64,000 nt of DNA from Acidobacteriota bacterium (GTDB lineage: Bacteria; Acidobacteriota; Polarisedimenticolia; Polarisedimenticolales; JAIQFR01): NCBI GenBank assembly GCA_041494445.1, contig JBGQAU010000002.1, positions 16,793 through 80,792 on the forward strand, given 5' to 3'. The notes below the pieces were generated by a model. That model did no database searches. It worked only from the letters and a program-made list of their open reading frames with translations, and was not told the origin of the DNA. A program made the translations under genes and the position numbers. How positions within the stretch are numbered: position 1 is the first letter of the stretch; the number at the start of each line of letters is the position of its first letter. This document shows positions 5,920 to 31,639 of this stretch, one piece after another.

Positions 5920-6144
5920 AGACTCGTATTGTCGTCAAATTCCCCAGTGACCTTGTGCGAATAGTCGCAGCGCTTCCCGCTACCGCCACCGCCGAGACGT
6001 TGGCAGCATGAAAGTTGACGAATTCTGCAACATCCGGAGCGGCAATAGGGTCCGAGGCGGGGGGCGAGCCGCCGTCGAAGGAGCGCACGGTTTTTGCACA
6101 TCGGCCGTCTCTGGCGGGATAACTCTGGGAGGAGGCCAAAGAGC

Positions 6145-10287: not shown

Positions 10288-10351
10288 GCTTCCTGAACGG
10301 CCAAGAAGGGAATCCAAGAGAATGCGAACCCAGGAGATCCTCGGAGGAAAC

Positions 10352-11197: not shown

Positions 11198-11220
11198 CGC
11201 ACGATCGGTCGACGTTCGAC

Positions 11221-11260
11221 GAGAGGGGAATGGGAGCCATTCCCCTCTCGTCGTTCTTCC
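11221..11260 (+). terminator. candidate intrinsic terminator
   Basis: Perfect 13-bp stem GAGAGGGGAATGG/CCATTCCCCTCTC with a 3-nt loop, followed by the T-containing GTCGTTCTTCC. Lies 24 nt after the stop. Confidence 0.5.
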
Positions 11261-11416
11261 GCGGCTCCTCGCGCTCTCCCCCCGCGCCCGCGCGATGATA
11301 AGATGCGGCCTGCTTTCGGCTTTCCGGGATGGTCGGGTCCGTGGGGCACGGTCCTGATGGGACACGGAACGCTCTCCCCGCTTCGTGCTCGGGGTGTTCG
11401 CGGACGGGACGGGTCC

Positions 11417-12553: not shown

Positions 12554-12590
12554 GCCGCGGGGGAGCGCTGCCATCGCCGGCCGGGAGTCG

Positions 12591-13127
12591 ATGAAGGCGT
12601 GGATGATCGTGGTGTGCGTCTCGGTCGTCGCCGCGCAGTCCATGGGCTGCGGCGCGGCGGAGCGCCGCAGGGTCCTCACGTTCCTGTTCGACGGGGTGCC
12701 GCCGCCCAAGGCGGCCGAGGCGCCGGACGCCGGACAGCAGGAGATCCGGCCGGACGCCGGCCGGTCGAGAGACGTTGGCTACAGGGAACATGGCCCCTAC
12801 GCGGCGAGACAGTGCGGTGCGTGCCACCAGCCGGGAGCTGCCAACGCCCTCGTGGCGCCGAAAGAGAGTCTCTGTCTCCGGTGCCACGAGATCAAGCTGG
12901 ACAAGAAGTACGTCCACGGTCCCCTCGCCTCGGGCGGTTGCCTGTCGTGCCACGACCCCCATAGCTCCCAGTACCGCTACCTCCTCGTGTCCGAGTCCGA
13001 TGGCTTCTGCGTGAATTGCCACGACCCACAGGCGATCGCACGGATCGCCGCGCACGGAGGGTCCCAGGAGAACTGCACGACGTGTCATGACGCCCACCTG
13101 TCCGACACGAAGTACCTGCTGAAATAG
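12591..13127 (+). CDS. pentahaem c-type cytochrome lipoprotein (c7/c3-like modules)
   Basis: Lipobox AQSMGC. Haem motifs are CGACH, CLRCH, CLSCHDPH, CVNCH and CTTCHDAH. Confidence 0.85.
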   Translation: MKAWMIVVCVSVVAAQSMGCGAAERRRVLTFLFDGVPPPKAAEAPDAGQQEIRPDAGRSRDVGYREHGPYAARQCGACHQPGAANALVAPKESLCLRCHEIKLDKKYVHGPLASGGCLSCHDPHSSQYRYLLVSESDGFCVNCHDPQAIARIAAHGGSQENCTTCHDAHLSDTKYLLK

Positions 13128-13142
13128 GAACGGAGACCCGGC

Positions 13143-15176
13143 TTGCGCCCCAAGGCCATCCTCGTTCTCCTGGCGGTCGCGGGCTCCGCACTCTCCCTGA
13201 CCCTCGCCGACCTGAGCGTCTTCGTTCCGAAGTCGGTCGGAAGCGGCGCGTACCTCGATCTGTTCGGCTCGTTCGAGGAAGACGACAGCCGCAGCAGCTC
13301 GCGAACGTTCGGGTGGACCGACACCTTCGTCAAGGAGAAGCTCACTCTCTACTCGAACGGCTACCTCTATCACCCGCGTTTCCTGCAGTACCGGCTCTCC
13401 GTCGCCGGGGCCCTCAAACAGGAGAAGTACCAGCCCTCCTACTATGACAGGCCCCTGGGATGGCAGCGAGCCTCGGGCATCGAGTACGACGGAAAGCTCC
13501 TGTTCCTGGCCGACCATCCCTACACCCTGGAGTTGTTCGCCTCCCGCTACGAGCCCCTCTTCAAGGACGAAGCGGCGACGCGGCACAACAGCGTCGCGAC
13601 CCGGCAGGGCGGTCTCTTCCGGTACCGCAGGAGACCGTACCTGTTCCGGGCCGACTTCTCCAAAGGCACCAACCGGTCGGCCTCGTCGTACTCCGAGGTC
13701 ACCCGGTTCGGCGTGGACGGCGAGTATCTCAAGCAATACAGGAACGGAAACCAGTTCTCCCTGCGCGCCGGTTACACCCCCTCGCGGTTCGCCAGCTCCT
13801 CGGGAGTGGAGGGTCATTCTACGGAATCGCTCTTCAGCAGCTTCGTGGACCTGCAGCGGGCGCGGTTGGAGTCTGGCGTGACCAGAAACTCGCGCGATCA
13901 GGAGGACCGGGTGTCGGGGAGGTTCGAGAGCGACCAGTTCGCATGGTACGAGCGTCTGAGCGCGTACCTGCCGCTGAACCTGAGGAGCGACATCTCCTAC
14001 CGCTATCAGAACAACGAGAACACGTTCCCCGGCGAGGATGCTTCGGGCCGCCACAAGCTGTCGGACATCGGCAAGGACCTTGAACTCAATATCGATCACA
14101 GGCTCTACCAGAGCCTGGTCTCCCGATACACCTTCTTCGATAGATCGAGGGAGTCCTCGGGTGGCGATTCGTCGTTCACGTCCCACGCCCTGGCCTTCGA
14201 CTACAACAAGACGATTCCGCGGGGCAAGATCCTGGCGGCGTTGAGCTTCTCCCGGGGCGACTCGGACAACCGGGGCCGCGCGGACGTCGTGGACGAGCTG
14301 CACGCGGCAGCTGTCGGTGGGGCGTTCAGCCTCGGCCGGCAGAACGTGGAGCCGCTGAGCCTGGTCGTCTTCCTCAAGTCGCCCCTGCCGCCGTTCCAGA
14401 CGGTTCGCCTGGAGAAGAACGTTGACTACGTGGTGGCGCCGCTCCTGAACACGCTCGAGATCAGCGTGCTCCGTGTGCCGCCGGAATTCGAGGTGGCGGG
14501 GACGACGGACTACGACTTCCTGGTCTCCTATTCCCTCACCACCGACCGGTTCGAGCTCCGGACCGAAACGGTCGCGCACAGCGCGAGCGTCGAGCTGCTC
14601 GACAACCAGCTGACCCCGTACTACAGCTACGTGGCGGTCCGATCCACGACGCTCTCCGGGGTCCTCCCGGGCGGCCCTCTCGACTCCACGACCTACACGA
14701 CGGGCCTTAGATTCCAGAGCGGGCCGCTGCGAGGGCTGGGGGAATTTCAGTACCTGAAATGGGACGTCAGTCCCTACAGGGCCTGGAGGGTAGAGGTCCA
14801 GTACGTCGGCCCGCTGAACCCGACCACCACCGTCTACGGGACCGTGTCGTACCTGAATAAGCGGTATCCCCAAGGCACGTCCCTGCAGCTGCGCGAGGCC
14901 TACACGGACGAGAGGGAGTCCGTCACCGGCAGCCTCCGGAAGCAGCTCTCTCCGCGGGGTCTGATGCTGTCCGCGGGGGGTTCCGTTTCGCGATGGCAGG
15001 GGCGGATCCGTAGCGACGCCTACGCGCTGAACTCCTCCTTGGACTGGAAGATCGGGAAGCTGGCGCTCAGCGCCGGCGCGAGCGCGTACCTGTCCCAAAC
15101 GGAGGACGGCGTCATCCTGTCGAACCGGCGCTTCCATCAGTACTATTACGTGAGCGCCCGGAGAGAGCTGTTCTAG
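13143..15176 (+). CDS. predicted outer-membrane beta-barrel protein (candidate porin of a porin-cytochrome complex)
   Basis: Signal-peptide-like N-terminus. Alternating hydrophobic/polar strand pattern rich in Y, R, S and G throughout. C-terminal ...YYYVSARRELF ends in Phe. The start is a TTG with GGAG 6 nt upstream, so it is uncertain. Confidence 0.65.
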   Translation: MRPKAILVLLAVAGSALSLTLADLSVFVPKSVGSGAYLDLFGSFEEDDSRSSSRTFGWTDTFVKEKLTLYSNGYLYHPRFLQYRLSVAGALKQEKYQPSYYDRPLGWQRASGIEYDGKLLFLADHPYTLELFASRYEPLFKDEAATRHNSVATRQGGLFRYRRRPYLFRADFSKGTNRSASSYSEVTRFGVDGEYLKQYRNGNQFSLRAGYTPSRFASSSGVEGHSTESLFSSFVDLQRARLESGVTRNSRDQEDRVSGRFESDQFAWYERLSAYLPLNLRSDISYRYQNNENTFPGEDASGRHKLSDIGKDLELNIDHRLYQSLVSRYTFFDRSRESSGGDSSFTSHALAFDYNKTIPRGKILAALSFSRGDSDNRGRADVVDELHAAAVGGAFSLGRQNVEPLSLVVFLKSPLPPFQTVRLEKNVDYVVAPLLNTLEISVLRVPPEFEVAGTTDYDFLVSYSLTTDRFELRTETVAHSASVELLDNQLTPYYSYVAVRSTTLSGVLPGGPLDSTTYTTGLRFQSGPLRGLGEFQYLKWDVSPYRAWRVEVQYVGPLNPTTTVYGTVSYLNKRYPQGTSLQLREAYTDERESVTGSLRKQLSPRGLMLSAGGSVSRWQGRIRSDAYALNSSLDWKIGKLALSAGASAYLSQTEDGVILSNRRFHQYYYVSARRELF

Positions 15177-15199
15177 GGGGCCGAAAGGAGAGCGCCAGG

Positions 15200-16270
15200 G
15201 TGAGCACGCTCGGTGGGAAAGGCGGGGGCAGGAGAAGGACCGCGGTCCTGCTCGGCCTCGTCTCGCTGCTCTCGGGATGCGTCTCGAGGTGGACGCTCCG
15301 CACGGAGCAGCCGGCCCTCGCCCTCCAGTGGCCGTACCAGCCGATGAAGGCGAAGCTCACCTACCTCCGGTCGTTGACCGGTTTCGCGAAGCAGCAGGGC
15401 GCCGCCTCGACGTTCAAGGCCTTCGTCTACGGGGGCGAGAGCGAGGACCGGAACGCCTTCGTCCTGCCGGTGGCGGTGGCGACCGGGGCCGACGGTCGCA
15501 TCGCGGTCGCCGACATGGGGCGCAGGTGCGTTCACCTCTACGTTCCCGGTGAGCAAACCTACGTCCGGATCGACGGCTCGAAAGGGGAGAAGATCCGGTC
15601 GCCCGTCGCGGTCGTCTTCGACGACGAGCTGAGGCTCTACCTCTCCGACTCGGCGGGGAAGGTATTCGCGTTCGGCCGGCAGGGCGAGTTCCTCTTCACG
15701 CTGGAGAAGGCCGGCGAGGAAGTCCTCCGGCGGCCGACCGGTCTCGCGTACAGCCCCGGCCGAAAGCTGCTCTACGTCGTGGACACCCTCGCGAACAGGG
15801 TCCACGCCTTCAGCAAGAGCGGGGAAGTCGTCTTCTCCTTCGGCCGGCGAGGGGAGGAGGCGGGCAGCTTCAACTTCCCGACGCACATCTTCCGGTCCTC
15901 CGCGGGAGATCTCTACATCACGAACTCGCTCGACTTCCGGATCGAGATCTTCGACGAGACGGGAAAGCACCTCGGGTCCTTTGGCCATCACGGCGACGGC
16001 TCCGGGGACCTGGCGATGCCCAAGGGGCTGGCCGTGGACAAGGACGGCGTGGTCTACGTCGCCGACAGCATCTTCGACAACGTGCAGCTCTTCAACCGGC
16101 GAGGGGATTTTCTCCTGACTCTCGGCAGTAGAGGCGCGGACTTCGGCGAGTTCTGGCTCCCCTCCGGAGTCTTCATCAGTGAAAACGACGAACTGTACGT
16201 CTGTGACACCTACAATCGGCGCATACAGGTGTTTCGGATCACGGAGCGGTATGCTGAAGAATCGTCCTGA
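15200..16270 (+). CDS. NHL-repeat beta-propeller lipoprotein 2 (paralogue of 11417..12553)
   Basis: Lipobox LLSGC. NHL blades include PVAVATGADGRIAVAD, PTGLAYSPGRKLLYVVD, PKGLAVDKDGVVYVAD and LPSGVFISENDELYVCD. Confidence 0.85.
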   Translation: MSTLGGKGGGRRRTAVLLGLVSLLSGCVSRWTLRTEQPALALQWPYQPMKAKLTYLRSLTGFAKQQGAASTFKAFVYGGESEDRNAFVLPVAVATGADGRIAVADMGRRCVHLYVPGEQTYVRIDGSKGEKIRSPVAVVFDDELRLYLSDSAGKVFAFGRQGEFLFTLEKAGEEVLRRPTGLAYSPGRKLLYVVDTLANRVHAFSKSGEVVFSFGRRGEEAGSFNFPTHIFRSSAGDLYITNSLDFRIEIFDETGKHLGSFGHHGDGSGDLAMPKGLAVDKDGVVYVADSIFDNVQLFNRRGDFLLTLGSRGADFGEFWLPSGVFISENDELYVCDTYNRRIQVFRITERYAEESS

Positions 16271-18107
16271 TCCCGGCCCGCCCCGCTGGCGGGTCCTGGT
16301 CGGCGCCCTATGTCTGCTCGGCTCCGGGCTCGGGCCCGGCCCCTCGGCGCAGACGGCGGCGAACATCGCCAACACGAAGCACGACCTCTCGGTGTCGGGC
16401 GCGGGACCGATCCGGTCGCTGACGGAGACCCGGGTCTGCGTCTTCTGCCACACGCCCCACAACGGAATGCCGCTCTCGCCGCTCTGGAACAAGGAGCTCG
16501 AGCCGCAGGTCTACCAGGTTTACACGAGCCCGACTCTCAGGGCGGGCCCGCTTCCCCAGCCCACCGGCCCGACGAAACTGTGCCTGAGCTGCCATGACGG
16601 CACGATCGCCATGGGAGCGGTCCTCAATCCTGCCGGGGGAATCCTCATGGCGGGCGGCGACACGCTGCCCCCGGGGAGCCTCTCCGATTTCGGCCTCGAC
16701 CTGTCGGGGCACCACCCGGTCTCGTTCATGTACTCGAATTCGCTGCCCAACGAGGAGCTTCAGCCGTCGCCCCCCTCGGATCTCGTCTTCGGCGGCACGG
16801 ACGAGGTCCACTGCATCACGTGCCACGATCCGCACAGCGACGTTTACGGCAAGTTCCTGGCGAAGGACAATCGCTACTCGGCGCTCTGCACCAGCTGCCA
16901 CCTGATCGCGGGGTGGAGCGGGTCGGCCCACGCCACCTCGACGGCATCGGTGGCCGGCATCCTGCCCCGGCCCCCCAAGACGTGGCCGACGTGGACGCAG
17001 CTGAACGAGTGGGGGTGTGAGACGTGCCACACGCCCCATTTCGCCCCGACCGCGCAAGGCCTGCTGAATTTCACCGCCTTGCCGCCGTCCCCGTTCTCCT
17101 GCACCTCCGACGGATGTCACGTGTCGCAGCCGCCCTCGCCTCACGCCCTGACCGCCTCGGACGTCGGGGTGCCTGGCAGGACGGGGGTTCGCTCCGTGGC
17201 CGGGCGGGTGGACATCGGCGGTCAGACGCGGAAGATCTCCGCGCACCACGAGGATCCCGGCATGAACCCGTCGGGGCTTCGGAGACCGGGACAACCTTCC
17301 CGGCCCGGTGCCGGCGGCGTAGGCTGCTCGGATTGCCACAATCCTCACGTCGCCAACTCCCGGGAAGCCACCGCACCCTATGCCTCAGGCATGCTGCAGG
17401 GGGTGAGCGGCGTCGACAGAAACGGCGCGGATGTCCCCGCGGCGACCTACCAGTACGAGGTCTGCTTCAAGTGCCACGGCGACTACAATCCGGACGTGGA
17501 GTACGTTCCCCGCTTCCTCGGCGGCACGAACACGCGACTGGTGTTCGATCCCGGGAACCCCTCGTTCCACCCGGTCGTGGGCATGGGGAGGAACCCGAAC
17601 GTCCCCAGCATCCCGTCGTCCTTCGAGCCCACCATGAGCCCATCGGACGTGATCTATTGCACGGCCTGTCACGCCGACGACGGGGGAGTCTCGAGCGGGC
17701 CGCACGGGTCGTCCTTCGCGCCGATCCTGAAGGCGCGCTACGAGACCGCGGACAACACGCCGGAGAGCTACGAGAGCTACGCTCTCTGCTACCGCTGCCA
17801 CGACAGGTCCAGCATCCTGAGCGACGTGAGCTTCCGGAAGACGGGGATCCCCACGACGCCTTCGGGCGGAGGCCACAGCGGGCATCTCGCGGCAGGCGCG
17901 CCGTGCTCCGCGTGTCACGACGCGCACGGCGTGTACGAAACCGACGCGACGGGGACGGGATCCCACACGCATCTCATCGACTTCGACAAGCGGATCGTCT
18001 TGCCGAGGGGCGGCGCGTACCCGGTTTACAACGACGCGGGGGCGGGCTCAGGAAGCTGCAATCTCGTCTGTCACGGCAAGGAACACGACAACTGGTCCTA
18101 CCCCTGA
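16251..18107 (+). CDS. multihaem cytochrome c (10 CXXCH plus CX4CH and CX3CH variants)
   Basis: ATG 16251 overlaps the previous gene by 20 nt. Signal peptide. Canonical motifs are CVFCHTPH, CLSCHDG, CITCHDPH, CTSCH, CETCHTPH, CSDCHNPH, CFKCH, CTACH, CYRCH and CSACHDAH. Variants are CTSDGCH and CNLVCH. Confidence 0.85.
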   Translation: MLKNRPDPGPPRWRVLVGALCLLGSGLGPGPSAQTAANIANTKHDLSVSGAGPIRSLTETRVCVFCHTPHNGMPLSPLWNKELEPQVYQVYTSPTLRAGPLPQPTGPTKLCLSCHDGTIAMGAVLNPAGGILMAGGDTLPPGSLSDFGLDLSGHHPVSFMYSNSLPNEELQPSPPSDLVFGGTDEVHCITCHDPHSDVYGKFLAKDNRYSALCTSCHLIAGWSGSAHATSTASVAGILPRPPKTWPTWTQLNEWGCETCHTPHFAPTAQGLLNFTALPPSPFSCTSDGCHVSQPPSPHALTASDVGVPGRTGVRSVAGRVDIGGQTRKISAHHEDPGMNPSGLRRPGQPSRPGAGGVGCSDCHNPHVANSREATAPYASGMLQGVSGVDRNGADVPAATYQYEVCFKCHGDYNPDVEYVPRFLGGTNTRLVFDPGNPSFHPVVGMGRNPNVPSIPSSFEPTMSPSDVIYCTACHADDGGVSSGPHGSSFAPILKARYETADNTPESYESYALCYRCHDRSSILSDVSFRKTGIPTTPSGGGHSGHLAAGAPCSACHDAHGVYETDATGTGSHTHLIDFDKRIVLPRGGAYPVYNDAGAGSGSCNLVCHGKEHDNWSYP

Positions 18108-19438
18108 TCCCTTTGCCGCCCCTCGGCCTTTCCGGCGGGCTTCGGTGCCTCGGGCTTCCGGCCGGGGGTCACTCGATCGTAGTAGGAAGGCCTGTGACAC
18201 CCCGGGGAGCACCCTCCGCCGGTCTCGGTCTTCACGAACTTCAGGGGAAGGCTCCATTTCCCGAACGGGACGGCCTTCGCCATGAGCTTCGGCAGGTCGC
18301 CGCCGTGGATCTCGTGGCACAGCTTGCAGCTTCGCCCCTTCTGCCGGTTGTTCACGTGCAGATAGTGGAGGTTCCTCTCCCCGTCCCTGAAGTTCGTGGC
18401 GAAGGAAGTGTCCGGATACTGAACCAGATCCCGCTTGTGACAGCCGAAGCACAATGCGAACTCCGTGTCGGTGTACGGGACATAGACATCGGCAGGGAAT
18501 TCCTTCACCAGGAGCTTCGGGTACGGGCCGCCGTGGGGGTCGTGGCAGGGAGTGCACCTGCCGTCCTGGATGGGGCCGTGGAGCATCGTCATGCTCTTCG
18601 CAATGACGCCGCCGTGGCAGCCCAGGCAGGTCTCCTTCTCCGGCTTCAGCAGTAGCTTCCCCTGGTCGCTGGCGTGGGGGGAATGGCAGTTGGCGCAGCC
18701 TTTTCCGTCCTTCACGGCGACATGGGCGACCGGGGCCTTCTCGACCTTCCCCGCGATCTCCTCATGGCACTTGAAGCAGACTCGGGCGCCTTCCTCGGAC
18801 AGCAGCTTCGGGTGCGCGGCACCGTGCGGGTCGTGACACGAGGTGCAGCCGCTCGCCATCGCCGGATGCACGTCGGGCTTTTTCAACAGGTCCTGGATGC
18901 CGAGATGGCAGCCGGTGCACACCGCGTCTCCCTCCCTCAGCAGGAGCGCCTTCGTGTCAGATTCATGAGGGGTGTGGCAGGCCGTGCAGTCCCCGGCGGA
19001 GACGGGGCCGTGGAGGAACTTGAAGGCGACCCGGTCCGAATGACAGGACTCGCACAGGTCCTTGAGCGGCTGCGACAGGAGCTTCGGCTGGTCCCCGGCG
19101 TGAGGGTCGTGGCAGGTCGTGCACGATCCTTCCTTCACGGGCTCGTGGACGTGGCTCTTCTTCCCGAACGCGTCATGACAGTCGTCGCAGAGCCCGGGCG
19201 GCGTCTTGGTGAGCTTGAACGTCTTCGTGCCTTTCTGAGGATGCGGCGTCGCCACGGACTCGTGACAACTGTCGCAGGACTCCGTGACGGGGTGGACGAC
19301 CTTGTGCTTGAGCAGCGTCTCGTGGCACGAAGCGGAGACGCACCCTTCCTGGGCCGCGGCGTCGGAGCAGGCGACCCCCAGGCCGACCGTCACGAGCGGG
19401 GTGAGCAGGAGAGTCAAGAGAAGCCGTTTCTTTCCCAT
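18098..19438 (-). CDS. multihaem cytochrome c lipoprotein (13 CXXCH plus 2 variants) built from repeated c7-like units
   Basis: Lipobox LGVAC. Reiterated unit C-x2-CH ... (V/L)H-P ... C-x2-CH-(D/T/S)-PH ... PKLL. Canonical motifs are CDSCH, CDDCH, CTTCH, CESCH, CTACH, CTGCH, CTSCH, CFKCH, CANCH, CLGCH, CTPCH, CFGCH and CKLCH. Variants are CVSASCH and CSPGCH. Confidence 0.9.
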   Translation of the reverse strand: MGKKRLLLTLLLTPLVTVGLGVACSDAAAQEGCVSASCHETLLKHKVVHPVTESCDSCHESVATPHPQKGTKTFKLTKTPPGLCDDCHDAFGKKSHVHEPVKEGSCTTCHDPHAGDQPKLLSQPLKDLCESCHSDRVAFKFLHGPVSAGDCTACHTPHESDTKALLLREGDAVCTGCHLGIQDLLKKPDVHPAMASGCTSCHDPHGAAHPKLLSEEGARVCFKCHEEIAGKVEKAPVAHVAVKDGKGCANCHSPHASDQGKLLLKPEKETCLGCHGGVIAKSMTMLHGPIQDGRCTPCHDPHGGPYPKLLVKEFPADVYVPYTDTEFALCFGCHKRDLVQYPDTSFATNFRDGERNLHYLHVNNRQKGRSCKLCHEIHGGDLPKLMAKAVPFGKWSLPLKFVKTETGGGCSPGCHRPSYYDRVTPGRKPEAPKPAGKAEGRQRDQG

Positions 19439-19567
19439 GAACGTGTGATCCTACCAGAGGGCGGAGCCGTTTCGCAGGCGTCATCGCAACGCCGCGAAAA
19501 TAGCAAGAAGCGTGCCCGCACGGTCCGCGAGCGTGGTAGGCTGACCCGGCCGGGAGGACCATCCGCC

Positions 19568-25400: not shown

Positions 25401-25630
25401 ACCGTGCCGTTTCACGACCCCCGAGAGATCCGGGTTGCGCCATTTCCCGCAGCGATGCGGTGAATCGAGGGAGGCGCCTCGCGCGACGGACGGCCGGCGC
25501 GCGGGAATCGGACGCCAGGAGGGCGTCCCGGGTTCCCGGGAATCCGAGTACGGTGGCGCGTAGATTGCAAAATCGACGCCTCCCTTCGAGGGGAGGAGGC
25601 GGGGGCTTCCGCCCGAGACGAGACACGAGA

Positions 25631-28390
25631 ATGAGACGGTTTGTCGCCCTGGCCTTTCTGGCGGTCCTCGCCGTGGCGGCATCTGCCGCGCAGGCGGACG
25701 AGCCGTGCCTCGAGTGCCACAGCGCGGGCGCGCTCGGGAAGCCGCGCCTCGACGTCAAGCTCGACGTTCTCAAGGCGTCCGTCCACGGCACGGCGGGGAT
25801 CGGCTGCGCCGACTGTCACCAGTCGCTGGCGGGGGTCACCGACTTCCCGCACGGGAAGGTGGCTCCCGTGGATTGCGGGGGTTGCCACGGCGAGATCGCC
25901 AAGATCTACGACGGGAGCCTCCACGGGCAGGAGGTGAAGAGGGGAGCGAAGCTCGCGCCGCGCTGCCCGACCTGCCACGGGGGCCACGATGTCCTCCCGG
26001 TGAAGGATCCCCGGGCCAAGGTCGCCCGCGCGAGGATCCCGTTCCTCTGCGGCTCCTGTCACAAGGAAGGCACCCCGGTCACCCGGACCTACGACATCCC
26101 GCAGGACAAGATCCTCGAGCAGTACTCGGAGAGCATCCACGGTGAGGGGCTCCTGAAGCGCGGGCTCACCGTGGTCGCCGTGTGCATCGACTGCCACACG
26201 TCCCACAACCTGCTCCCGCACACGGACCCCCGCTCGAGCATCAATCGCAAGAACATCGCCAGGACCTGCGAGCAGTGCCACGGGCTCATCGAGCAGGTCC
26301 ACCAGAAGGTCATCCGCGGCGAGCTCTGGCAGAAGGCGCCCAACGAGGTCCCCGCCTGCGTGGACTGCCACCAGCCGCACCGGATCCGCAGGATCTTCTA
26401 CGACCAGGGGATATCGGACGCGCAGTGCCTGCGGTGCCACGCCGATCCGAAGATCGCCACGACACGGAGCGGGAAGCCCGTCTCGCTGTACGTGAACCCG
26501 GACGAGGTCCACGAGTCGATCCACCGGAACACGCGGTGCGCCCAGTGTCACACGGGCACCGATCCGACGGCCAAGGACCGGCCCTGCTCGGCGATCCGCA
26601 CGAAGGTGGACTGCTCGATCTGTCACGCCGAGATCTCGAAGACCTACGCCACGAGCACCCACGGGAGGCTCGTGGAGAGGGGCGACCCGAACGCGCCCCT
26701 CTGCCGCGACTGCCACGGGATCCACGGCGTCCGGTCCCGCAAGGACCTCCGGTCGAACACGTTCCCGACGAACGTCCCGGCGCTGTGCGGCCAGTGCCAC
26801 CGGGAGGGGAACAAAGCGGCGGTCCGGTACAAGGGGGATCAGCACCGCGTCGTCGAGAACTACACCGAGTCGATCCACGGGAGGGGGCTGCTCGGCAGCG
26901 GCCTCGTCACCACGGCGAAGTGCACGGACTGCCACACGGCGCACCACGTCCTGCCTCACGAGGATCCGACCTCCAGCGTGAACTCCGCGAACCTGCCGGG
27001 CACCTGCGGGAAGTGCCACACCGGGATCTACGAGACGTTCGAGAAGAGCATCCACTCTCCGGCGGTCTCGAAGAGCGACAAGCCGCTTCCCACCTGCTAC
27101 GACTGCCACAGCTCCCACCAGATCGCCCGGCACGACACGGAGGGGTTCAAGCTCGCGATCCTCGCCCAGTGCGGAACGTGCCACCGAGAGGTGACCGAGA
27201 GCTACTTCGAGACGTACCACGGAAAGGCGTCGAAGCTCGGCGGGACCACCACGGCGAAGTGCTACGACTGCCACGGATCGCACGACGTCCTCCCGCCGAC
27301 GGAGACGGCGTCGCACCTCTCGCGCCAGAACATCGTCGCGACCTGCGGCAAGTGCCATCCGGGCTCGCACCGGCGCTTCGCGGGATACCTCACGCACGCC
27401 ACGCATCACGACCGGCGCAAGTACCCCTGGCTCTACTGGTCCTTCTGGTTCATGACGATCCTCCTGGTGAGCACGCTCACGGTCTTCGGGGTGCACACGC
27501 TGCTGTGGCTCCCGCGCTCCTGGCAGCTGATGAAGCACCGGAAGACCCTCGAGGCCGCCCCCCACGGGAAGGAGTACCGCCGCTTTCCCAAGCTCTACCG
27601 CCAGCTCCACATCATGGTCATCGTGAGCTTCCTCGGCCTGGCCGTCACCGGGATGTGCCTGAAGTTCTCCTACCTCCCGTGGGCGCGCTGGATCGCGGGT
27701 CGCCTGGGCGGGTTCGAGTCGGCGGGATTCATTCACCGCGTCTGCGCGATCATCACCTTCGGGTATTTCGGAATCCACGCCTGGGACCTGTTCCGGAAGA
27801 AGCGCGCTTCGGGCCGGGGCTGGTTCCGGTTCATCTTCTCGGGGGACTCGATGGTCCCCAACGCGGGAGACCTCAAGGATCTCGCGGCGACGTTCAGGTG
27901 GTTCGTGGGCCGCGGCCCGCGCCCCGCCTACGGGCGGTGGACGTACTGGGAGAAGTTCGACTACTTCGCGGTGTTCTGGGGCGTGGCGATCATCGGAGCG
28001 ACCGGGCTCATGCTCTGGTTCCCCGAGCTGTTCACCTACATCCTGCCGGGCTGGTTCATCAACGTGGCCACCATCGTCCACTCGGACGAGGCGCTCCTGG
28101 CCACGGGCTTCATCTTCACGATCCACTTCTTCAACACGCACTTCCGGCCCGACCGCTTTCCGATGGACGCGGTGATCTTCACCGGCCGCACGACGGTGGA
28201 GGAGCTCAAGGAGGACCGCCCGCGCGAGTACGAGGCGCTTCTGCGGTCCGGCGAGCTCGAGAAGCATCTCGTGGATCCGCTCCCATCGTACGTCGTGAGG
28301 GGCTTCAGGATCTTCGGGGCGGCGGCGCTTCTGATCGGTATCGGGCTGATCCTCCTCATCGTGTGGGCGGAGGTTTTCGGGTATCGCTGA
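25631..28390 (+). CDS. 19-haem cytochrome c fused to an integral-membrane b-type cytochrome-like domain (candidate quinol:periplasm electron-transfer module)
   Basis: Signal peptide MRRFVALAFLAVLAVAASAAQA. I counted 19 CXXCH motifs. From about 27421 onward there are hydrophobic helices with conserved His (LHIMVIV, IHRVCAI...GIHAW, VHSDEALL...TIHFFNTH), homologous to the separate protein at 29651. Confidence 0.85.
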   Translation: MRRFVALAFLAVLAVAASAAQADEPCLECHSAGALGKPRLDVKLDVLKASVHGTAGIGCADCHQSLAGVTDFPHGKVAPVDCGGCHGEIAKIYDGSLHGQEVKRGAKLAPRCPTCHGGHDVLPVKDPRAKVARARIPFLCGSCHKEGTPVTRTYDIPQDKILEQYSESIHGEGLLKRGLTVVAVCIDCHTSHNLLPHTDPRSSINRKNIARTCEQCHGLIEQVHQKVIRGELWQKAPNEVPACVDCHQPHRIRRIFYDQGISDAQCLRCHADPKIATTRSGKPVSLYVNPDEVHESIHRNTRCAQCHTGTDPTAKDRPCSAIRTKVDCSICHAEISKTYATSTHGRLVERGDPNAPLCRDCHGIHGVRSRKDLRSNTFPTNVPALCGQCHREGNKAAVRYKGDQHRVVENYTESIHGRGLLGSGLVTTAKCTDCHTAHHVLPHEDPTSSVNSANLPGTCGKCHTGIYETFEKSIHSPAVSKSDKPLPTCYDCHSSHQIARHDTEGFKLAILAQCGTCHREVTESYFETYHGKASKLGGTTTAKCYDCHGSHDVLPPTETASHLSRQNIVATCGKCHPGSHRRFAGYLTHATHHDRRKYPWLYWSFWFMTILLVSTLTVFGVHTLLWLPRSWQLMKHRKTLEAAPHGKEYRRFPKLYRQLHIMVIVSFLGLAVTGMCLKFSYLPWARWIAGRLGGFESAGFIHRVCAIITFGYFGIHAWDLFRKKRASGRGWFRFIFSGDSMVPNAGDLKDLAATFRWFVGRGPRPAYGRWTYWEKFDYFAVFWGVAIIGATGLMLWFPELFTYILPGWFINVATIVHSDEALLATGFIFTIHFFNTHFRPDRFPMDAVIFTGRTTVEELKEDRPREYEALLRSGELEKHLVDPLPSYVVRGFRIFGAAALLIGIGLILLIVWAEVFGYR

Positions 28391-28415
28391 CCCGACGAGG
28401 CGGAGAGGGACGATC

Positions 28416-29654
28416 ATGGTGTTTCGGCAGGGGATGAGTTGCGGCTTCCTGCTGGCCGCCTCGGTGGCGGCCCTGGGAGGGGCCGCATGGGCCGCCAAGG
28501 GAGGCGGCGACGCCGCCTGTCTCGAGTGCCATTCGGGCGGCAACCTAGGGAAGCCCGAGCTGGATGTGGACGCGAAGGTGCTCCATGCGTCGCTCCACGG
28601 CGCGGCGGGGCTCTCGTGCACCGACTGCCACGCGGACCTCGTGGCGGCGAGGGAGTTCCCCCACGGCAAGACGGGGCCACCCGCGTGCGGCACTTGTCAC
28701 GACGCCGAGCGGCAGGCGGTGGAGCGGTCGGCGCACCGGCAGAACGACGCGGCGTCCCCTCGGTGCTGGTCCTGCCACGGCGGCCACGACGTGCTCAAGG
28801 CCGGGGACAAGGCCTCGAAGGTCGCGCCGCTGAACCAACCGACCACCTGCCTGCGGTGCCACGCCGATACTAAGCTCGCGGCGGATCACGGCCTGCCGGT
28901 CCGGGAGAGTCCGGAAGCGTTCCAGAGGAGCACCCACTACCAGCAGCTGCTCTCGGGGAACGGCGCGGCGCCGACCTGCACCACGTGCCACGGGGCCCAC
29001 GACAACGTGTCGCATCGGGACGCGAACTCGCCGATCGCCCGCCGGAACGTCGCATCGACGTGCGGCATGTGCCATTCGGGGATCGCCGATCAGTTCCTGG
29101 CGAGCGTTCACGGCGTGAACCTGACGAAGGCGAACGCCGACGTGCCGACCTGCACGGGGTGTCACAGCGAGCACTCGATCCGGGGACCGAAGGATCCCTC
29201 CTCGCCGGTCTACCCGACCCACGTCGCCACGACCTGCTCCCACTGCCACGAGAACGAGAGGCTCGCGAGCCAGTACGGCATCGCCGCGGCGAGGCTCCAG
29301 ACCTTCACCGGGTCCTACCACGGGGCGGCCAGCCGCTTCGGCGACGCCACCGTCGCCAACTGCGCCTCCTGCCACGGGGCCCACGACATCCGGCCGTCCG
29401 GCGACCCGAAGTCGAGCATCAACCCCTCGAACCTCACGCGGACCTGCGGGAAGTGCCACCCGCAGGCGGGCCTGAACTTCGCCTCGGGGAAGATTCACGT
29501 TCGCGATCTCCCGGAGGACAACTACTGGGCTTGGATGGTCAAGCGGGTGTACCTGTCGATGATCTGGTCGGTCATCGGGGGGTTCGTGGCGCTGATCCTC
29601 CTGGACCTCTGGTGGAGGGCGAGGACGCGCTGGTCGGCGAGGGGCAGGGCATGA
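28416..29654 (+). CDS. 11-haem cytochrome c with C-terminal membrane anchor, paralogue of the c-domain of the upstream gene
   Basis: The N-terminus ...CLECHSGGNLGKPELDVDAKVLHASLHGAAGLSCTDCH parallels CLECHSAGALGKPRLDVKLDVLKASVHGTAGIGCADCH. 11 CXXCH motifs. One C-terminal TM helix. Confidence 0.85.
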   Translation: MVFRQGMSCGFLLAASVAALGGAAWAAKGGGDAACLECHSGGNLGKPELDVDAKVLHASLHGAAGLSCTDCHADLVAAREFPHGKTGPPACGTCHDAERQAVERSAHRQNDAASPRCWSCHGGHDVLKAGDKASKVAPLNQPTTCLRCHADTKLAADHGLPVRESPEAFQRSTHYQQLLSGNGAAPTCTTCHGAHDNVSHRDANSPIARRNVASTCGMCHSGIADQFLASVHGVNLTKANADVPTCTGCHSEHSIRGPKDPSSPVYPTHVATTCSHCHENERLASQYGIAAARLQTFTGSYHGAASRFGDATVANCASCHGAHDIRPSGDPKSSINPSNLTRTCGKCHPQAGLNFASGKIHVRDLPEDNYWAWMVKRVYLSMIWSVIGGFVALILLDLWWRARTRWSARGRA

Positions 29655-30544
29655 GCCAGGCGATACAGGACGTGTCGTCGTTCATCGGCGACGACGAGAT
29701 CTTCGTCCGGATGACGCTGGCGCAGCGGCTCCAGCATGCCTTGATCATCGTCACGTTCACGACGCTGGTCCTGACCGGATTCCCGCTGGTCTATCCGAGC
29801 TTGGGGATCTGGAACTGGATCGGGCTCGGCCCCTCCGGCTTCGGCGTCCGCTCGCTCGTGCACCGGATCGCCGGAGGCGGGCTGATCTTCGTCAGCCTCT
29901 GGCACGTCGCCTACGTGATGCTGACCGAGGAGGGAGGGCGTTACTTCCGCGAGATGATGCCGAAGCTGGTCGACGCCCGGCAGCTGATCGAGTCGTTCAT
30001 GAACAAGCTCGGCCTCATGGAGTCGCTGCACCGGCGAGGCCTGCTCAGGGGGCTCCTGGACCGGAACCCCTGGCTCCGCTTCGCCGAGCCGCCCCGGTAC
30101 GGGAAGTACAACTGGGTCGAGAAGTTCGAGTACCTCGCCATCGTGTGGGGCAACTTCGTGATGATCCTGACCGGTCTCTGCCTCTGGTTCTTCGAGGCGG
30201 CGTTCGCGCTTTTCCCGAAGCCGGCCGTCGACATCATCAAGCTGGTCCACGGATTCGAGGCGCTGCTCGCCTTTCTCGCGATCATCATCTGGCACATGTA
30301 CTGCGTCCACCTCAACCCGGAGGTGTTCCCGATGAGCCGCATGTGGCTCAACGGGAGGATCTCCGGTAAGCTTCTCCGTCACCACTACCCGGGTTGGTAC
30401 CGGGAGATCGAGGCCGAACGCCGGGAGAAGGCCCGCGTCGAGGCGGCGCTCCGGTGGTACGACTTGCAGCAGCCGCCCGGGGGGGCGGAGGGCGCGCGGA
30501 ATGTCGCAGGAGACGGGGAAGGGGGCCGCCCGGCGGGACGCTGA
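29651..30544 (+). CDS. integral-membrane b-type cytochrome-like subunit (FdnI/HydC-like, 4 TM)
   Basis: ATGA overlap with the upstream stop. Four hydrophobic helices with His residues (LQHALII, VHRIAGG...LWHVAY, VHGFEALL...IWHMYCVH). Aligns by eye with 27421..28390. Confidence 0.75.
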   Translation: MSQAIQDVSSFIGDDEIFVRMTLAQRLQHALIIVTFTTLVLTGFPLVYPSLGIWNWIGLGPSGFGVRSLVHRIAGGGLIFVSLWHVAYVMLTEEGGRYFREMMPKLVDARQLIESFMNKLGLMESLHRRGLLRGLLDRNPWLRFAEPPRYGKYNWVEKFEYLAIVWGNFVMILTGLCLWFFEAAFALFPKPAVDIIKLVHGFEALLAFLAIIIWHMYCVHLNPEVFPMSRMWLNGRISGKLLRHHYPGWYREIEAERREKARVEAALRWYDLQQPPGGAEGARNVAGDGEGGRPAGR

Positions 30545-31175
30545 GGACCTCGGGCGAGCCGTCGCGATTCTGGTCGCGGTCGGGATCGCCCTGGGCCTGG
30601 GGTTCAACGCGCTGGGAAGGGCGGGGACGCCCCCGCGAGGGCTTCCCTGGATCGCCGAGGTGAAGCCCCTTCTCACCCTCGAAGAGTTGAGGGGAAGGAT
30701 TCCGGGCGCCGCTCCGGCGCCGCCGGCCGCGCGCGCGCCCGTCAGCGACGATCCGCTGGCCCTCTCGGGAGGTGCGGTGGAAAGTGGGGCGGGCGTTCCG
30801 GAGATCCCTGACGTCGACCGGCCGGTCAAGATCCAGCTCCCCGCGGTGAAGAAGTTCTTCGATGCCGGCGCGGCGCTGTTCGTGGACGCCCGCGAGGCGG
30901 CCGACTACGCCGCGGGGCACGTGCGCGGGGCCGTCAACCTGCCGTTCGACGAGTCGGTCACCGATCCCGAGCGGCTCGAGAAGCTCGCCAGCGGCGGGAA
31001 GCCGATCATCGTGTATTGCGGCGGTGGTGGCTGCGAGGTGTCGATCCAGCTCGCCGGAGCGCTGATGCAGGCGGGCCACCGCAAGGTGCTGGTCGACGAG
31101 GGCGGGTTCGGGGAGTGGGAAGCCGCGAAGTACCCGATCGCCAAGGGGGACGAGCCCGGGGAAGCGACGCGCTGA
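30501..31175 (+). CDS. membrane-anchored rhodanese-domain protein
   Basis: N-terminal TM helix, then FVDAREAADYAAGHVRGAVNLP and the active-site loop IIVYCGGGGCEVS. Confidence 0.8.
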   Translation: MSQETGKGAARRDAEDLGRAVAILVAVGIALGLGFNALGRAGTPPRGLPWIAEVKPLLTLEELRGRIPGAAPAPPAARAPVSDDPLALSGGAVESGAGVPEIPDVDRPVKIQLPAVKKFFDAGAALFVDAREAADYAAGHVRGAVNLPFDESVTDPERLEKLASGGKPIIVYCGGGGCEVSIQLAGALMQAGHRKVLVDEGGFGEWEAAKYPIAKGDEPGEATR

Positions 31176-31639
31176 TGGACGCGTTCCGCCGCCTGCTCTC
31201 CGATCGCCGCACGATCCGGGCCGGGCAGCTCGCGATCGGCCTGATCTTCGTGACCGCCTCGCTGAGCAAGATCGGCGACCTCTCCGCGTTCGCGCAGCAG
31301 GTCCACAACTTCCGGGTCGCGCCGGTGTGGAGCGAGAACCTGATCGCGATGACCCTCCCCTGGATCGAGTTGGTCGCCGCGTTGTCCCTGATCCTCGGCG
31401 TGCGCCCGCGGTCCGGAGCCGCGGTCGTCACGGTGCTGATGGCCGGGTTCACCGCCGGCGTCGTCCTGGCGATGGCCCGCGGCCTCGACTTCGAGTGCGG
31501 GTGCTTCGGGACCGCGGATCACACGAGGGTCGGCGCGATCAAGCTCGCGGAGAACCTGCTGATGCTGGGGACCTCGCTCGTGGCCGTCCGATGGCCGGTC
31601 GGGGCTTCGCCTAGCGCGACGGCTGGCCGAGCTTATTGA
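31175..31639 (+). CDS. DoxX/MauE-family membrane protein
   Basis: Four hydrophobic helices, FVTASLSKIGD and a CGCFG motif typical of MauE-like proteins. The start overlaps the rhodanese stop (TGATG). Confidence 0.75.
   Translation: MDAFRRLLSDRRTIRAGQLAIGLIFVTASLSKIGDLSAFAQQVHNFRVAPVWSENLIAMTLPWIELVAALSLILGVRPRSGAAVVTVLMAGFTAGVVLAMARGLDFECGCFGTADHTRVGAIKLAENLLMLGTSLVAVRWPVGASPSATAGRAY

What the first reader, a model, noticed from the sequence alone, without database searches (positions are those of the whole stretch)
25631..30544. Fused and split versions of the same cytochrome c / cytochrome b module sit side by side
Gene 25631-28390 encodes 19 CXXCH motifs followed by a multi-TM domain with conserved His pairs. 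The next two genes encode an 11-haem cytochrome with one TM anchor and a separate 4-TM protein. The N-terminal ~70 residues of the two c parts are clearly alignable (CLECHS-G-LGKP-LDV...H...CxDCH...FPHGK...CGxCH), as are their last haem motifs (CGKCHP). The b-type parts also align (KF[ED]Y[LF]A[IV][VF]WG, VH..EALLA). This records a gene duplication plus a fusion or fission event. The c-part also expanded or contracted by 8 haems. The architecture recalls inner-membrane quinol-oxidising cytochromes such as Geobacter CbcL, a b-type domain plus a multihaem c domain, but with far more haems.
Basis: partly seen in the sequence, partly recalled or inferred. Interest (0 to 1): 0.7.

Follow-up and report, generated by a model that had tools for sequence, protein, structure and literature searches.

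The report
Paired CbcL-type quinol-cytochrome modules, fused and split

Summary
Gene 25631-28390 has 19 CXXCH motifs plus a six-helix membrane domain. Gene 28416-29654 has 11 CXXCH motifs plus one anchor helix. Gene 29651-30544 is a four-helix FdnI-type dihaem cytochrome b.

- **Homology is specific.** The c parts match at E 2e-57 and 7e-42, and the b parts at E 1e-22. Other multihaem genes in the window score at most 44 bits.
- **Haem arithmetic.** The extra 8 haems are an internal tandem repeat: 19 = 8+8+3 and 11 = 8+3.
- **The duplication is ancient.** The 19-haem "type A" protein occurs in at least 596 species genomes across many phyla. One member was already listed in 2018 as a CbcL/MtrH/MtoC homologue.
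- **The pairing is conserved.** A "type B" paralogue lies beside type A in 26 of 49 well-flanked loci.
- **Fused and split forms alternate often.** Both families contain both states, and parsimony needs at least 46 changes among 210 type B domains. Polarity for this locus cannot be settled.

The most likely function is two menaquinol:cytochrome c oxidoreductases that feed an extracellular electron-transfer chain. Direction of electron flow and division of labour are inferred, not shown. I rate it a new member of a known kind, of moderate interest.

The parts
25554..25569 (+). Sigma-54-type promoter-like element, TGGCGCGTAGATTGCA, starting 77 nt upstream of the g1 ATG (78 nt on the offset scale printed, where both sequences read -78)
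   Evidence: It has one mismatch to TGGCAC-N5-TTGCW. The -24 and -12 boxes and the distance to the ATG are conserved in relative L090, although the spacer has diverged. The number of matches in the window is not above chance on its own (2 found against 0.57 expected).
25631..28390 (+). g1: fused type A protein of 919 aa, with 19 c-type haem motifs and a six-TM FdnI-like cytochrome b domain
   Evidence: An identical protein is called on two public contigs.
25631..25699 (+). g1 signal peptide (residues 1-23, MRRFVALAFLAVLAVAASAAQA|DE)
   Evidence: Read directly from the sequence. The hydropathy peak covers residues 4-22.
25706..26392 (+). g1 c-domain repeat 1 (haems 1-8, residues 26-254)
   Evidence: 41-42% identical to repeat 2, E 5e-55. 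About 41% identical to g2 haems 1-8, E 4e-54.
26426..27130 (+). g1 c-domain repeat 2 (haems 9-16, residues 266-500)
27170..27358 (+). g1 three-haem tail (haems 17-19, ending in CGKCHP)
   Evidence: 40% identical to the g2 region holding haems 9-11, E 5e-19.
27425..27508 (+). g1 TM0 anchor helix carrying the invariant His622 (motif G.HT.LWLPRS)
   Evidence: A His is present in TM0 in 70 of 70 type A proteins.
27581..28150 (+). g1 FdnI-type four-helix cytochrome b core (TM1-TM4) with ligand His660, His702, His817 and His832
   Evidence: These His are invariant in 144 of 144 aligned domains. The best solved-structure match of the g1 model is FdnI 1kqf_C (TM-score 0.78, probability 1.00).
28286..28381 (+). 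g1 sixth helix, TM5
   Evidence: TM5 is present in all fused type A proteins, is missing from one of the seven split type A b subunits, and is absent from type B.
28416..29654 (+). g2: type B c subunit of 412 aa with a signal peptide, 11 haem motifs and a C-terminal anchor helix without His (nt 29538-29615)
   Evidence: In other loci, partner subunits of the g3 clade have 10-11 haems with the same spacing and a His-free anchor.
29651..30544 (+). g3: type B stand-alone dihaem cytochrome b of 297 aa with four TM helices and ligand His29, His71, His200 and His215
   Evidence: PF01292 at 40.3 bits against a cut-off of 30.1. FdnI 1kqf_C by sequence at E 1.5e-8, with the four His aligned. The model has pLDDT 85, and its best fold match is 1kqf_C at TM-score 0.77.
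30501..31175 (+). Membrane-anchored rhodanese, probably in the same operon; its link to the cytochromes is unproven
   Evidence: It is conserved downstream of g3 in relatives L088-L091.
31175..31639 (+). MauE/DoxX-family membrane protein, the last gene before the convergent rpsT

Best explanation
The locus encodes two paralogous inner-membrane quinol:multihaem-cytochrome oxidoreductase modules of the CbcL/MtrH/MtoC type. They probably form one sigma-54-driven operon: g1, g2, g3, rhodanese, MauE/DoxX.

**Shared design.** Each module has a Sec-exported periplasmic chain of bis-His c-type haems. One anchor helix (TM0) ties the chain to an FdnI-type four-helix bundle. That bundle holds two b-type haems stacked across the membrane.

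**Differences between the two modules**
- g1 is one polypeptide with 19 c haems arranged 8+8+3. It has a His in TM0 and a sixth helix, TM5.
- g2 and g3 are two translationally coupled polypeptides with 11 c haems arranged 8+3. The g2 anchor has no His, and there is no sixth helix.

**Inferred mechanism.** Menaquinol is oxidised at a site near the cytoplasmic-side haem b, as the FdnI alignment suggests. Electrons then cross the membrane through the two b haems and run along the c-haem chain. From there they reach periplasmic and outer-membrane cytochromes, such as the cytochrome and porin cluster 6-19 kb upstream. If the quinone site is on the cytoplasmic side, outward electron flow would be driven by the membrane potential and would not build it. 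The two modules would then serve different acceptor potentials or different partners, as ImcH, CbcL and CbcBA do in Geobacter.

**What is shown and what is inferred.** Anatomy, homology, ligand conservation, fold and synteny are shown. Substrate, direction of flow and division of labour are inferred.

**Evolution.** A and B are ancient paralogues that usually travel together. Type A arose from an 11-haem form by tandem duplication of an 8-haem block. The junction between TM0 and TM1 has been cut or joined many times.
For: **Anatomy and homology**
- Gene anatomy.
- Homology of the c parts and of the b parts.

**Cytochrome b domain**
- g3 passes the Pfam PF01292 threshold.
- g3 aligns with FdnI so that His18, His57, His155 and His169 match its four His.
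- These four His are invariant in 144 of 144 type A and type B domains.
- The g3 and g1 models match FdnI 1kqf_C best, at TM-scores 0.77 and 0.78.
- FdnI Asn110, Gln113 and Lys114 align with g3 Asn154, Glu157 and Lys158. The Glu-Lys pair is invariant.

**Haem ligation in g1.** All 19 CXXCH motifs and 20 further His in the c part are invariant in 47 homologues, which is enough for bis-His ligation.

**Match to CbcL**
[quoted passage not shown] This is the layout described for CbcL in bioRxiv 10.1101/2021.04.15.440034.
- Orthologue L072 equals OGU58019.1 (952 aa, 19 motifs, 6 TM) in Table S2 of PMC6295460.

**Breadth and pairing**
- At least 596 species genomes carry a type A relative.
- A type B gene lies next to type A in 35 of 77 loci, and in 26 of 49 loci with at least 4 kb of flank on both sides. 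The gap is 300 nt or less in 22 of those 35.
- An ImcH-like gene is adjacent in 23 loci.

**Operon evidence**
- The gaps are 25 nt, then overlaps of 4 nt, 44 nt and 1 nt.
- No terminator-like site is found on the coding strand.
- The same gene order is kept in relatives L088-L091.
- The sigma-54-like box is conserved in L090.

**Cytochrome-rich surroundings:**
Against: - There is no experimental evidence for any member of either family.
- The direction of electron flow cannot be read from sequence. PMC6295460 found no feature that separates quinol-oxidising CbcL/MtrH from quinone-reducing MtoC.
- The window has no ImcH-like gene.
- The upstream cytochrome cluster is separated from g1 by unrelated genes: RtcB, a CBS-domain gene and malic enzyme.
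- The placement of the quinone site rests on one pairwise alignment with FdnI.
- I could not compare g1 or g3 directly with the Geobacter CbcL, CbcB or MtoC sequences, because they were not retrievable with the tools.
- The sigma-54-like match is a single site and is absent from L088 and L089.
- The trees are neighbour-joining only.
Confidence: 0.7

Rival explanations
1. The anatomy is the same, but the modules run inwards. They take electrons from periplasmic or extracellular donors, such as Fe(II) or a syntrophic partner, and reduce menaquinone at the cytoplasmic face. This would build proton-motive force as formate dehydrogenase-N does, and as proposed for MtoC.
For: - FdnI, the closest solved relative, works in this direction (established knowledge of Fdn-N).
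- PMC6295460 reports family members in both Fe(III) reducers and Fe(II) oxidisers.
- The CXXCH spacing at the end of the g1 c part (30, 25, 30, 28) resembles that of MtoC (31, 25, 30, 28).
Against: - Frequent adjacency to ImcH-like genes (23 loci). The literature reports ImcH homologues only in reducers.
- The carrier phyla are mostly anaerobic heterotroph lineages.
- Neither point is decisive.
Confidence: 0.2
2. Type A and type B are not alternatives. They are parts of one machine, for example a heteromeric membrane supercomplex or a relay in which one module hands electrons to the other.
For: - The tight and widespread adjacency, with a gap of 300 nt or less in 22 of 35 cases.
- Membership of the same operon in this window.
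Against: - About half of the well-flanked type A loci have no type B nearby.
- Modules of the g3 clade occur alone in other genomes.
- Each module has its own complete set of parts.
Confidence: 0.1
3. In this lineage the split module serves periplasmic sulfur chemistry (thiosulfate, polysulfide or persulfide handling) together with the downstream anchored rhodanese and the MauE/DoxX protein, rather than metal respiration.
For: - The rhodanese start overlaps the end of g3, and it has an N-terminal anchor helix.
- MauE/DoxX follows directly.
- The five-gene order is conserved in relatives at 73-84% identity.
Against: - The rhodanese and MauE/DoxX pair is absent from the other g3-clade contexts examined.
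- It did not appear among the neighbour clusters shared across the 80 type A loci.
- No catalytic sulfur enzyme is encoded nearby.
Confidence: 0.08
4. The split is an artefact: a frameshift or assembly error in a gene that is really fused.
For: One such case does seem to exist elsewhere. In L082 the type A c part stops before TM0, while the near-identical L026 is fused.
Against: - g2 ends with a complete anchor helix and a basic tail, and the g3 ATG overlaps the g2 stop codon.
- The same split is present on independent contigs and in relatives at 73-84% identity.
- All 120 best homologues of g3 are stand-alone proteins of 253-324 aa.
Confidence: 0.02

Closest known systems
Geobacter sulfurreducens CbcL (GSU0274) and the CbcL/MtrH/MtoC family as surveyed by Zhong & Shi 2018 (PMC6295460)
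   Same: - An N-terminal periplasmic multihaem c domain with bis-His haems.
- A C-terminal six-TM HydC/FdnI-like dihaem b domain.
- The His pattern: one in each of TM1-3 and two in TM5.
- An orthologue of g1 (OGU58019.1) is in their table of homologues, which spans 416-1034 aa and 3-23 motifs.
   Different: - g1 has 19 haems against 9 in CbcL, through an internal 8-haem tandem repeat.
- The 19-haem form is a separate and very conserved clade (50-98% identity in the b domain across phyla). It is found mainly in Acidobacteriota and the FCB-group phyla, not in Desulfuromonadia.
- Direct sequence comparison with GSU0274 could not be run.
- Type B (g2 and g3) lacks the sixth helix.
Geobacter CbcBA (CbcA, a seven-haem c with a C-terminal anchor, plus CbcB, a four-TM dihaem b)
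   Same: - A two-gene architecture: a multihaem c subunit with a C-terminal TM anchor, plus a separate four-TM cytochrome b.
- Possible sigma-54 control.
- The N-terminal haems of g1 and g2 resemble PDB 28pb, which is probably CbcA (E 1.6e-9 with the g1 family profile, 2e-3 with g2 alone).
   Different: - CbcB is reported to have three ligand His, with the fourth supplied by the CbcA anchor, and to share no sequence homology with CbcL.
- g3 carries all four FdnI-type His, the g2 anchor has none, and g3 is clearly homologous to the CbcL-type domain of g1.
- g2 has 11 haems, not 7.
E. coli formate dehydrogenase-N gamma subunit FdnI (PDB 1kqf chain C)
   Same: - A four-helix bundle.
- Four His ligands in the same helices.
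- A conserved stretch before TM3 that aligns with the FdnI quinone-site residues.
- It is the best fold match for both g3 and g1.
   Different: - The electron partner is a multihaem cytochrome c, not an Fe-S subunit.
- There is a long insertion in the cytoplasmic TM2-TM3 loop.
- g1 adds the helices TM0 and TM5.
- The physiological direction is probably reversed.

Membership tests
CbcL/MtrH/MtoC-type fused cytochrome (applied to g1) | Signal peptide followed by an N-terminal periplasmic domain with multiple CXXCH motifs | tested here: met
   g1 has 19 motifs, all invariant in 47 homologues.
CbcL/MtrH/MtoC-type fused cytochrome (applied to g1) | Six transmembrane helices in the C-terminal half | tested here: met
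   Helices at residues 599-642, 654-678, 695-727, 772-796, 807-837 and 886-917 in the model. The hydropathy scan at my threshold picked out only four of the six (TM0, TM1, TM3, TM5); TM2 and TM4 were too weakly hydrophobic.
CbcL/MtrH/MtoC-type fused cytochrome (applied to g1) | [quoted passage not shown] | tested here: met
   His622, His660, His702, His817 and His832 are invariant. The pattern is described in bioRxiv 10.1101/2021.04.15.440034.
CbcL/MtrH/MtoC-type fused cytochrome (applied to g1) | Significant sequence similarity to G. sulfurreducens CbcL itself | not testable with these tools
   The GSU0274 sequence could not be retrieved. Indirect support: orthologue L072 equals OGU58019.1, which is listed as a homologue in Table S2 of PMC6295460.
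CbcL/MtrH/MtoC-type fused cytochrome (applied to g1) | Needed for reduction of low-potential extracellular acceptors | not testable with these tools
   This needs genetics in a cultured carrier.
CbcL/MtrH/MtoC-type fused cytochrome (applied to g2+g3) | Single polypeptide with six TM helices | tested here: not met
   There are two polypeptides with five TM helices in total (1+4), no sixth helix and no His in the anchor. The pair is homologous to the family but differs in architecture.
FdnI/HydC dihaem cytochrome b (Pfam PF01292) | Score above the Pfam gathering threshold | tested here: met
   g3 scores 40.3 bits against a cut-off of 30.1. g1 does not reach the threshold itself. It is linked through g3 (E 1e-22) and through fold.
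FdnI/HydC dihaem cytochrome b (Pfam PF01292) | Four His ligands on TM1, TM2 and TM4 (two on TM4) | tested here: met
   The four His are invariant in 144 of 144 domains.
FdnI/HydC dihaem cytochrome b (Pfam PF01292) | Four-helix bundle fold | tested here: met
   Foldseek finds 1kqf_C as the top hit, at TM-score 0.77 for g3 and 0.78 for g1, probability 1.00.
FdnI/HydC dihaem cytochrome b (Pfam PF01292) | Quinone site at the cytoplasmic-side haem | tested here: inconclusive
   FdnI Asn110, Gln113 and Lys114 align with g3 Asn154, Glu157 and Lys158, and the Glu-Lys pair is invariant. There is no structural or biochemical test.
Geobacter CbcBA (applied to g2+g3) | Separate c subunit with a C-terminal anchor, plus a four-TM b subunit | tested here: met
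Geobacter CbcBA (applied to g2+g3) | Three ligand His in the b subunit, with the fourth supplied by the c subunit's anchor helix | tested here: not met
   g3 has all four His. The g2 anchor (VYLSMIWSVIGGFVALILLDLWW) has none.
Geobacter CbcBA (applied to g2+g3) | Seven-haem CbcA | tested here: not met
   g2 and most clade partners have 11 motifs; one gene call has 10.

The most novel reading that the evidence does not exclude
The invariant 19-haem chain of type A may be a membrane-rooted wire long enough to reach across most of the periplasm. At roughly 8-10 Å per haem, as in known linear multihaem cytochromes, it would measure about 15-19 nm. The quinone pool could then connect directly to outer-membrane conduits without soluble carriers, with the shorter type B module serving periplasmic partners. 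In addition, the extra invariant His of the type A membrane part (His622 in TM0 and His716 at the cytoplasmic end of TM2) could bind a third haem b or allow a ligand switch that gates electron flow by potential.
Probability: 0.12. Interest if true: 0.7.

Novelty: new member of a known kind. Interest (0 to 1): 0.4.

Why it matters
Quinol:cytochrome oxidoreductases are the least understood step of extracellular electron transfer. They have been studied almost only in Geobacter and Shewanella.

This locus points to a very widespread and very conserved 19-haem CbcL-type protein. It occurs in at least 596 species genomes across Acidobacteriota, Zixibacteria, Ignavibacteria, Gemmatimonadota, Planctomycetota and other phyla. 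It usually travels with a shorter paralogue and often with an ImcH-like gene. Together they could serve as a genomic marker set for this kind of respiration in uncultured soil and sediment bacteria.

The frequent natural cutting and joining at one linker also shows that the c subunit and the b subunit can work as one chain or as two. That is useful for protein engineering and for reading annotations. None of this changes the known mechanism.

Tried and rejected
- **Out-of-frame comparison.** I repeated it in frame.
- **Self-BLAST of the g1 c part.** It returned only the trivial hit. Splitting the sequence revealed the repeat.
- **First adjacency count.** under-counted type B neighbours because my span filter absorbed them. 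I redid the count per ORF.
- **First tree.** With 66 type B domains it suggested one fission at the base of the g3 clade, with a fused sister L066 (bootstrap 97). Denser sampling with 210 domains overturned this. At least 46 changes are needed, the root state is uncertain, and a fused protein (P0241) is the next sister. I therefore dropped the claim that the window's split is a derived fission.
- **Literature search for 19-haem proteins.** It was swamped by unrelated matches.
- **Papers on Melioribacter and MBNT15.** They did not mention this protein.
- **Curated family models.** No NCBIfam or Pfam model covers the full-length proteins.
- **ImcH homologue in the window.** tblastn found none.
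- **Length of the haem chain.** It could not be measured because model coordinates are not exposed. The g1 model is also only moderately confident in the c part (pLDDT 72.7, pTM 0.45).

Full report
**1. What is in the sequence**

- g1 (25631-28390, 919 aa) begins with a Sec-type signal peptide and carries 19 CXXCH motifs. It ends in a membrane domain.
- g2 (28416-29654, 412 aa) has a signal peptide, 11 CXXCH motifs and one C-terminal hydrophobic helix.
- g3 (29651-30544, 297 aa) has four hydrophobic helices and no haem c motif. Its ATG overlaps the g2 stop codon.

The window matches a metagenome-assembled genome, GCA_041479655.1, contig JBGOYL010000011.1. On that contig independent gene calls give the same g1 and g2. 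g3 is called from an upstream GTG at 29612, giving 310 aa. Relatives use the ATG start.

**2. Is the similarity real?**

Yes.
- The c part of g1 matches g2 twice. Residues 26-390 match g2 35-348 at 34% identity, E 2e-57. Residues 266-589 match g2 35-361 at 31% identity, E 7e-42.
- The b parts match at 29% identity over 243 residues, E 1e-22. One search used an out-of-frame boundary and should be ignored.
- Four other multihaem ORFs in the same window served as a control for generic CXXCH similarity. They score at most 44 bits against g1 or g2.
- In a three-way alignment, identity stays at 24-34% after removing the Cys and His columns.

**3. Where the 8 extra haems come from**

- g1 haems 1-8 and g1 haems 9-16 are 41-42% identical (E 5e-55).
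- g2 haems 1-8 are about 41% identical to g1 haems 1-8.
- The three-haem tails are 40% identical, E 5e-19.

So g1 is 8+8+3 and g2 is 8+3. The difference is a tandem duplication of an 8-haem block.

**4. The membrane parts**

- g3 passes the Pfam threshold for PF01292.
- By sequence, g3 hits E. coli FdnI at E 1.5e-8. FdnI His18, His57, His155 and His169 line up with g3 His29, His71, His200 and His215.
- In my alignment of 144 b domains these four His are invariant. They correspond to g1 His660, His702, His817 and His832. An R, a D, an EK pair and a WG pair are also invariant or nearly so.
- The g3 model has pLDDT 85 and the g1 model 72.7, with its membrane part at 75-88. Both have FdnI (1kqf_C) as the top solved-structure match, at TM-scores 0.77 and 0.78.
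- g1 has two helices that g3 lacks. TM0 lies just after the last haem and corresponds to the g2 anchor. TM5 lies at the C-terminus.
- TM0 carries a His in 70 of 70 type A proteins and in 31 of 32 fused type B proteins. It carries none in g2.
- TM5 is present in all fused type A proteins, is missing from one of the seven split type A b subunits, and is absent from type B.
- The six helices of g1 and its 1+1+1+2 His pattern match the description of CbcL in bioRxiv 10.1101/2021.04.15.440034.

**5. Relatives elsewhere**

*Type A*
- g1 has more than 5000 database relatives. Full-length proteins of about 920 aa at 58-80% identity occur in many phyla.
- A scan of one genome per species found at least 596 genomes with a relative.
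- In 80 fetched loci, 61 of 73 full-length "type A" proteins have exactly 19 motifs.

*Type B*
- A second family has 9-17 motifs and a b domain closer to g3.
- It lies beside type A in 35 of 77 loci, and in 26 of 49 loci with at least 4 kb of flank on both sides. The gap is usually under 300 nt.
- Neighbour-joining separates type A from type B with bootstrap 100.

*Fused and split states*
- Type A is usually fused, but it is split into a c subunit and a b subunit in L046, L049, L052, L063, L073 and L074. L082 looks like a frameshift.
- Type B next to type A is usually fused.
- All 120 best homologues of g3 are stand-alone proteins of 253-324 aa. In most of the other genomes examined (L084-L087, L088-L091) the partner is an 11-haem c subunit, 10 in one gene call, encoded directly upstream with overlapping stop and start. 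In L083 a 209-aa ORF lies between the c subunit and the b gene. All these partners have a His-free anchor.
- An exhaustive profile search found 2715 representatives at E ≤ 1e-3. The best 150 comprise 74 stand-alone b proteins, 69 c-b fusions (most often 11 haems), 6 b-c fusions and one protein with haems on both sides of the b domain.
- On a tree of 210 type B domains, parsimony needs at least 46 changes of state, and a fused protein is the next sister of the g3 group.
- The junction is therefore very labile, and I cannot say whether the window's split is ancestral or derived. Neighbour-joining error and fragmentary metagenome proteins inflate this number, but they do not change the conclusion.

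**6. What is known**

- Zhong & Shi 2018 (PMC6295460) surveyed CbcL/MtrH/MtoC homologues. They found them in 15 phyla, at 416-1034 aa, with 3-23 motifs and mostly six TM helices.
- Their Table S2 lists OGU58019.1 from Ignavibacteria GWF2_33_9 (952 aa, 19 motifs). This is my type A locus L072. The 19-haem form is thus already catalogued, but it has not been analysed.
- Their ImcH table lists RBG1_1C00001G0778 of Zixibacteria RBG-1. It is the neighbour of the type A gene ...0777, my P0072.
- My neighbour cluster of about 500 aa fits ImcH. It has 5-6 haems, three N-terminal helices, an NrfH-like segment and ImcH-like motif spacing. It is adjacent to type A in 23 loci.
- CbcL has nine His-His haems. 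CbcA has seven haems and a C-terminal anchor (PMC13591261).
- CbcB is said to have three ligand His, with the fourth supplied by CbcA, and to share no homology with CbcL. g2-g3 fails that test, so it is a split CbcL-type module and not a CbcBA orthologue.
- The first five haems of the g1 family match PDB 28pb, a 278-aa "Cytochrome c", at E 1.6e-9. I infer that this is the CbcA structure cited in the review. The tool does not say so.

**7. Surroundings**

*Upstream*
- Malic enzyme/PTA, a CBS-domain gene, a response regulator, a c3-type cytochrome and RtcB.
- Further upstream lies a cluster of six multihaem cytochrome genes. It includes a 677-aa protein with a signal-peptide-like N-terminus and a C-terminal Phe, which is a candidate porin.

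*Downstream*
- An anchored rhodanese and a MauE/DoxX protein, with overlapping reading frames.
- Then the convergent rpsT gene and tol-pal genes.

*Conservation and regulation*
- The order from maeB through g1, g2, g3 and rhodanese to MauE is kept in relatives whose g3 is 73-84% identical. One of these relatives is labelled Acidobacteriia.
- No terminator-like site was found inside the five genes.
- A sigma-54-like box starts 77 nt upstream of the g1 ATG. It is conserved at the same offset in L090 (both print as -78), with a diverged spacer, and is absent from L088 and L089.
- The only other one-mismatch site in the window lies about 64-79 nt upstream of the 13-haem gene on the minus strand.

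**8. Interpretation**

- The best reading is two paralogous quinol:cytochrome c oxidoreductases of the CbcL type in one operon.
- The FdnI alignment suggests a quinone site near the cytoplasmic-side haem. Outward electron flow would then be helped by the membrane potential and would not add to it. That fits a role with low-potential acceptors. This step is inference.
- Whether the two modules cover different potentials, serve different partners or run in opposite directions is open.
- The family is known, and the 19-haem form is already listed in a survey. I did not find three things described in the searchable literature. The first is the 8+8+3 anatomy. The second is the conserved A+B pairing, often with an ImcH-like gene. 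The third is the frequency of fusion and fission.
- I rate this a new member of a known kind, with moderate interest.

Noticed in passing
window 6094-19450: A cytochrome island. It holds ORFs with 8, 4, 5, 10 and 13 CXXCH motifs; the 8-motif ORF is 1397 aa and has PKD and CarboxypepD_reg domains. It also holds an NHL-repeat protein and a 677-aa ORF (13143-15176) with no Pfam hit. That ORF has a signal-peptide-like N-terminus and ends in ...RRELF, which suggests an outer-membrane beta-barrel of a porin-cytochrome conduit.
   Followed up: partly
window 30501-31639: A rhodanese with an N-terminal membrane anchor and a CGGGGC active-site loop overlaps the end of g3. A MauE/DoxX membrane protein follows it. 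The pair is conserved behind g3 in close relatives (L088-L091) but not in more distant g3-clade loci.
   Followed up: partly
window 19502-19517 (-) and 25554-25569 (+): These are the only two one-mismatch matches to the sigma-54 consensus in the 64-kb window. Each lies about 62-79 nt upstream of a multihaem cytochrome gene start. The count alone is not significant (12 of 100 shuffles reach 2 matches). The g1 site is conserved in L090.
   Followed up: partly
L035 10789-13943, and similar stretches in L039, L052, L063 and L078: In several Bacteroidota, Ignavibacteria and Calditrichota genomes the type B and type A genes are followed by an ImcH-like gene and by a Rieske protein plus a cytochrome b6/ExtP-like gene. 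Together they form a dense island of alternative quinol oxidoreductases.
   Followed up: partly
L082 7899-10865, compared with L026 7899-10745: The type A gene of L082 is broken. Its c part has 18 motifs and stops before TM0, and a 327-aa b part follows after a 130-nt gap. The near-identical L026 gene is intact, so this is probably a frameshift or assembly error rather than a real split.
   Followed up: partly
g1 residues 622, 716 and 837 (window 27494-27496, 27776-27778, 28139-28141): Three His in the type A membrane part are invariant in addition to the four FdnI-type ligands. His716 is also common in type B, in 56 of 66 domains. Their role is unknown.
   Followed up: partly
P0259, P0265, P0365 and P0377 (representative proteins): Some relatives have the reverse order of parts: the cytochrome b domain comes first and 3-16 CXXCH motifs follow. 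One protein (P0352) has haems on both sides of the b domain.
   Followed up: no
L087 971-3958: In one genome (a candidate Abyssubacteria contig), a g3-clade module lies directly downstream of futalosine-pathway menaquinone synthesis genes (VitK2_biosynth and two radical-SAM CofH_C-type genes). This fits a menaquinone-linked role.
   Followed up: no
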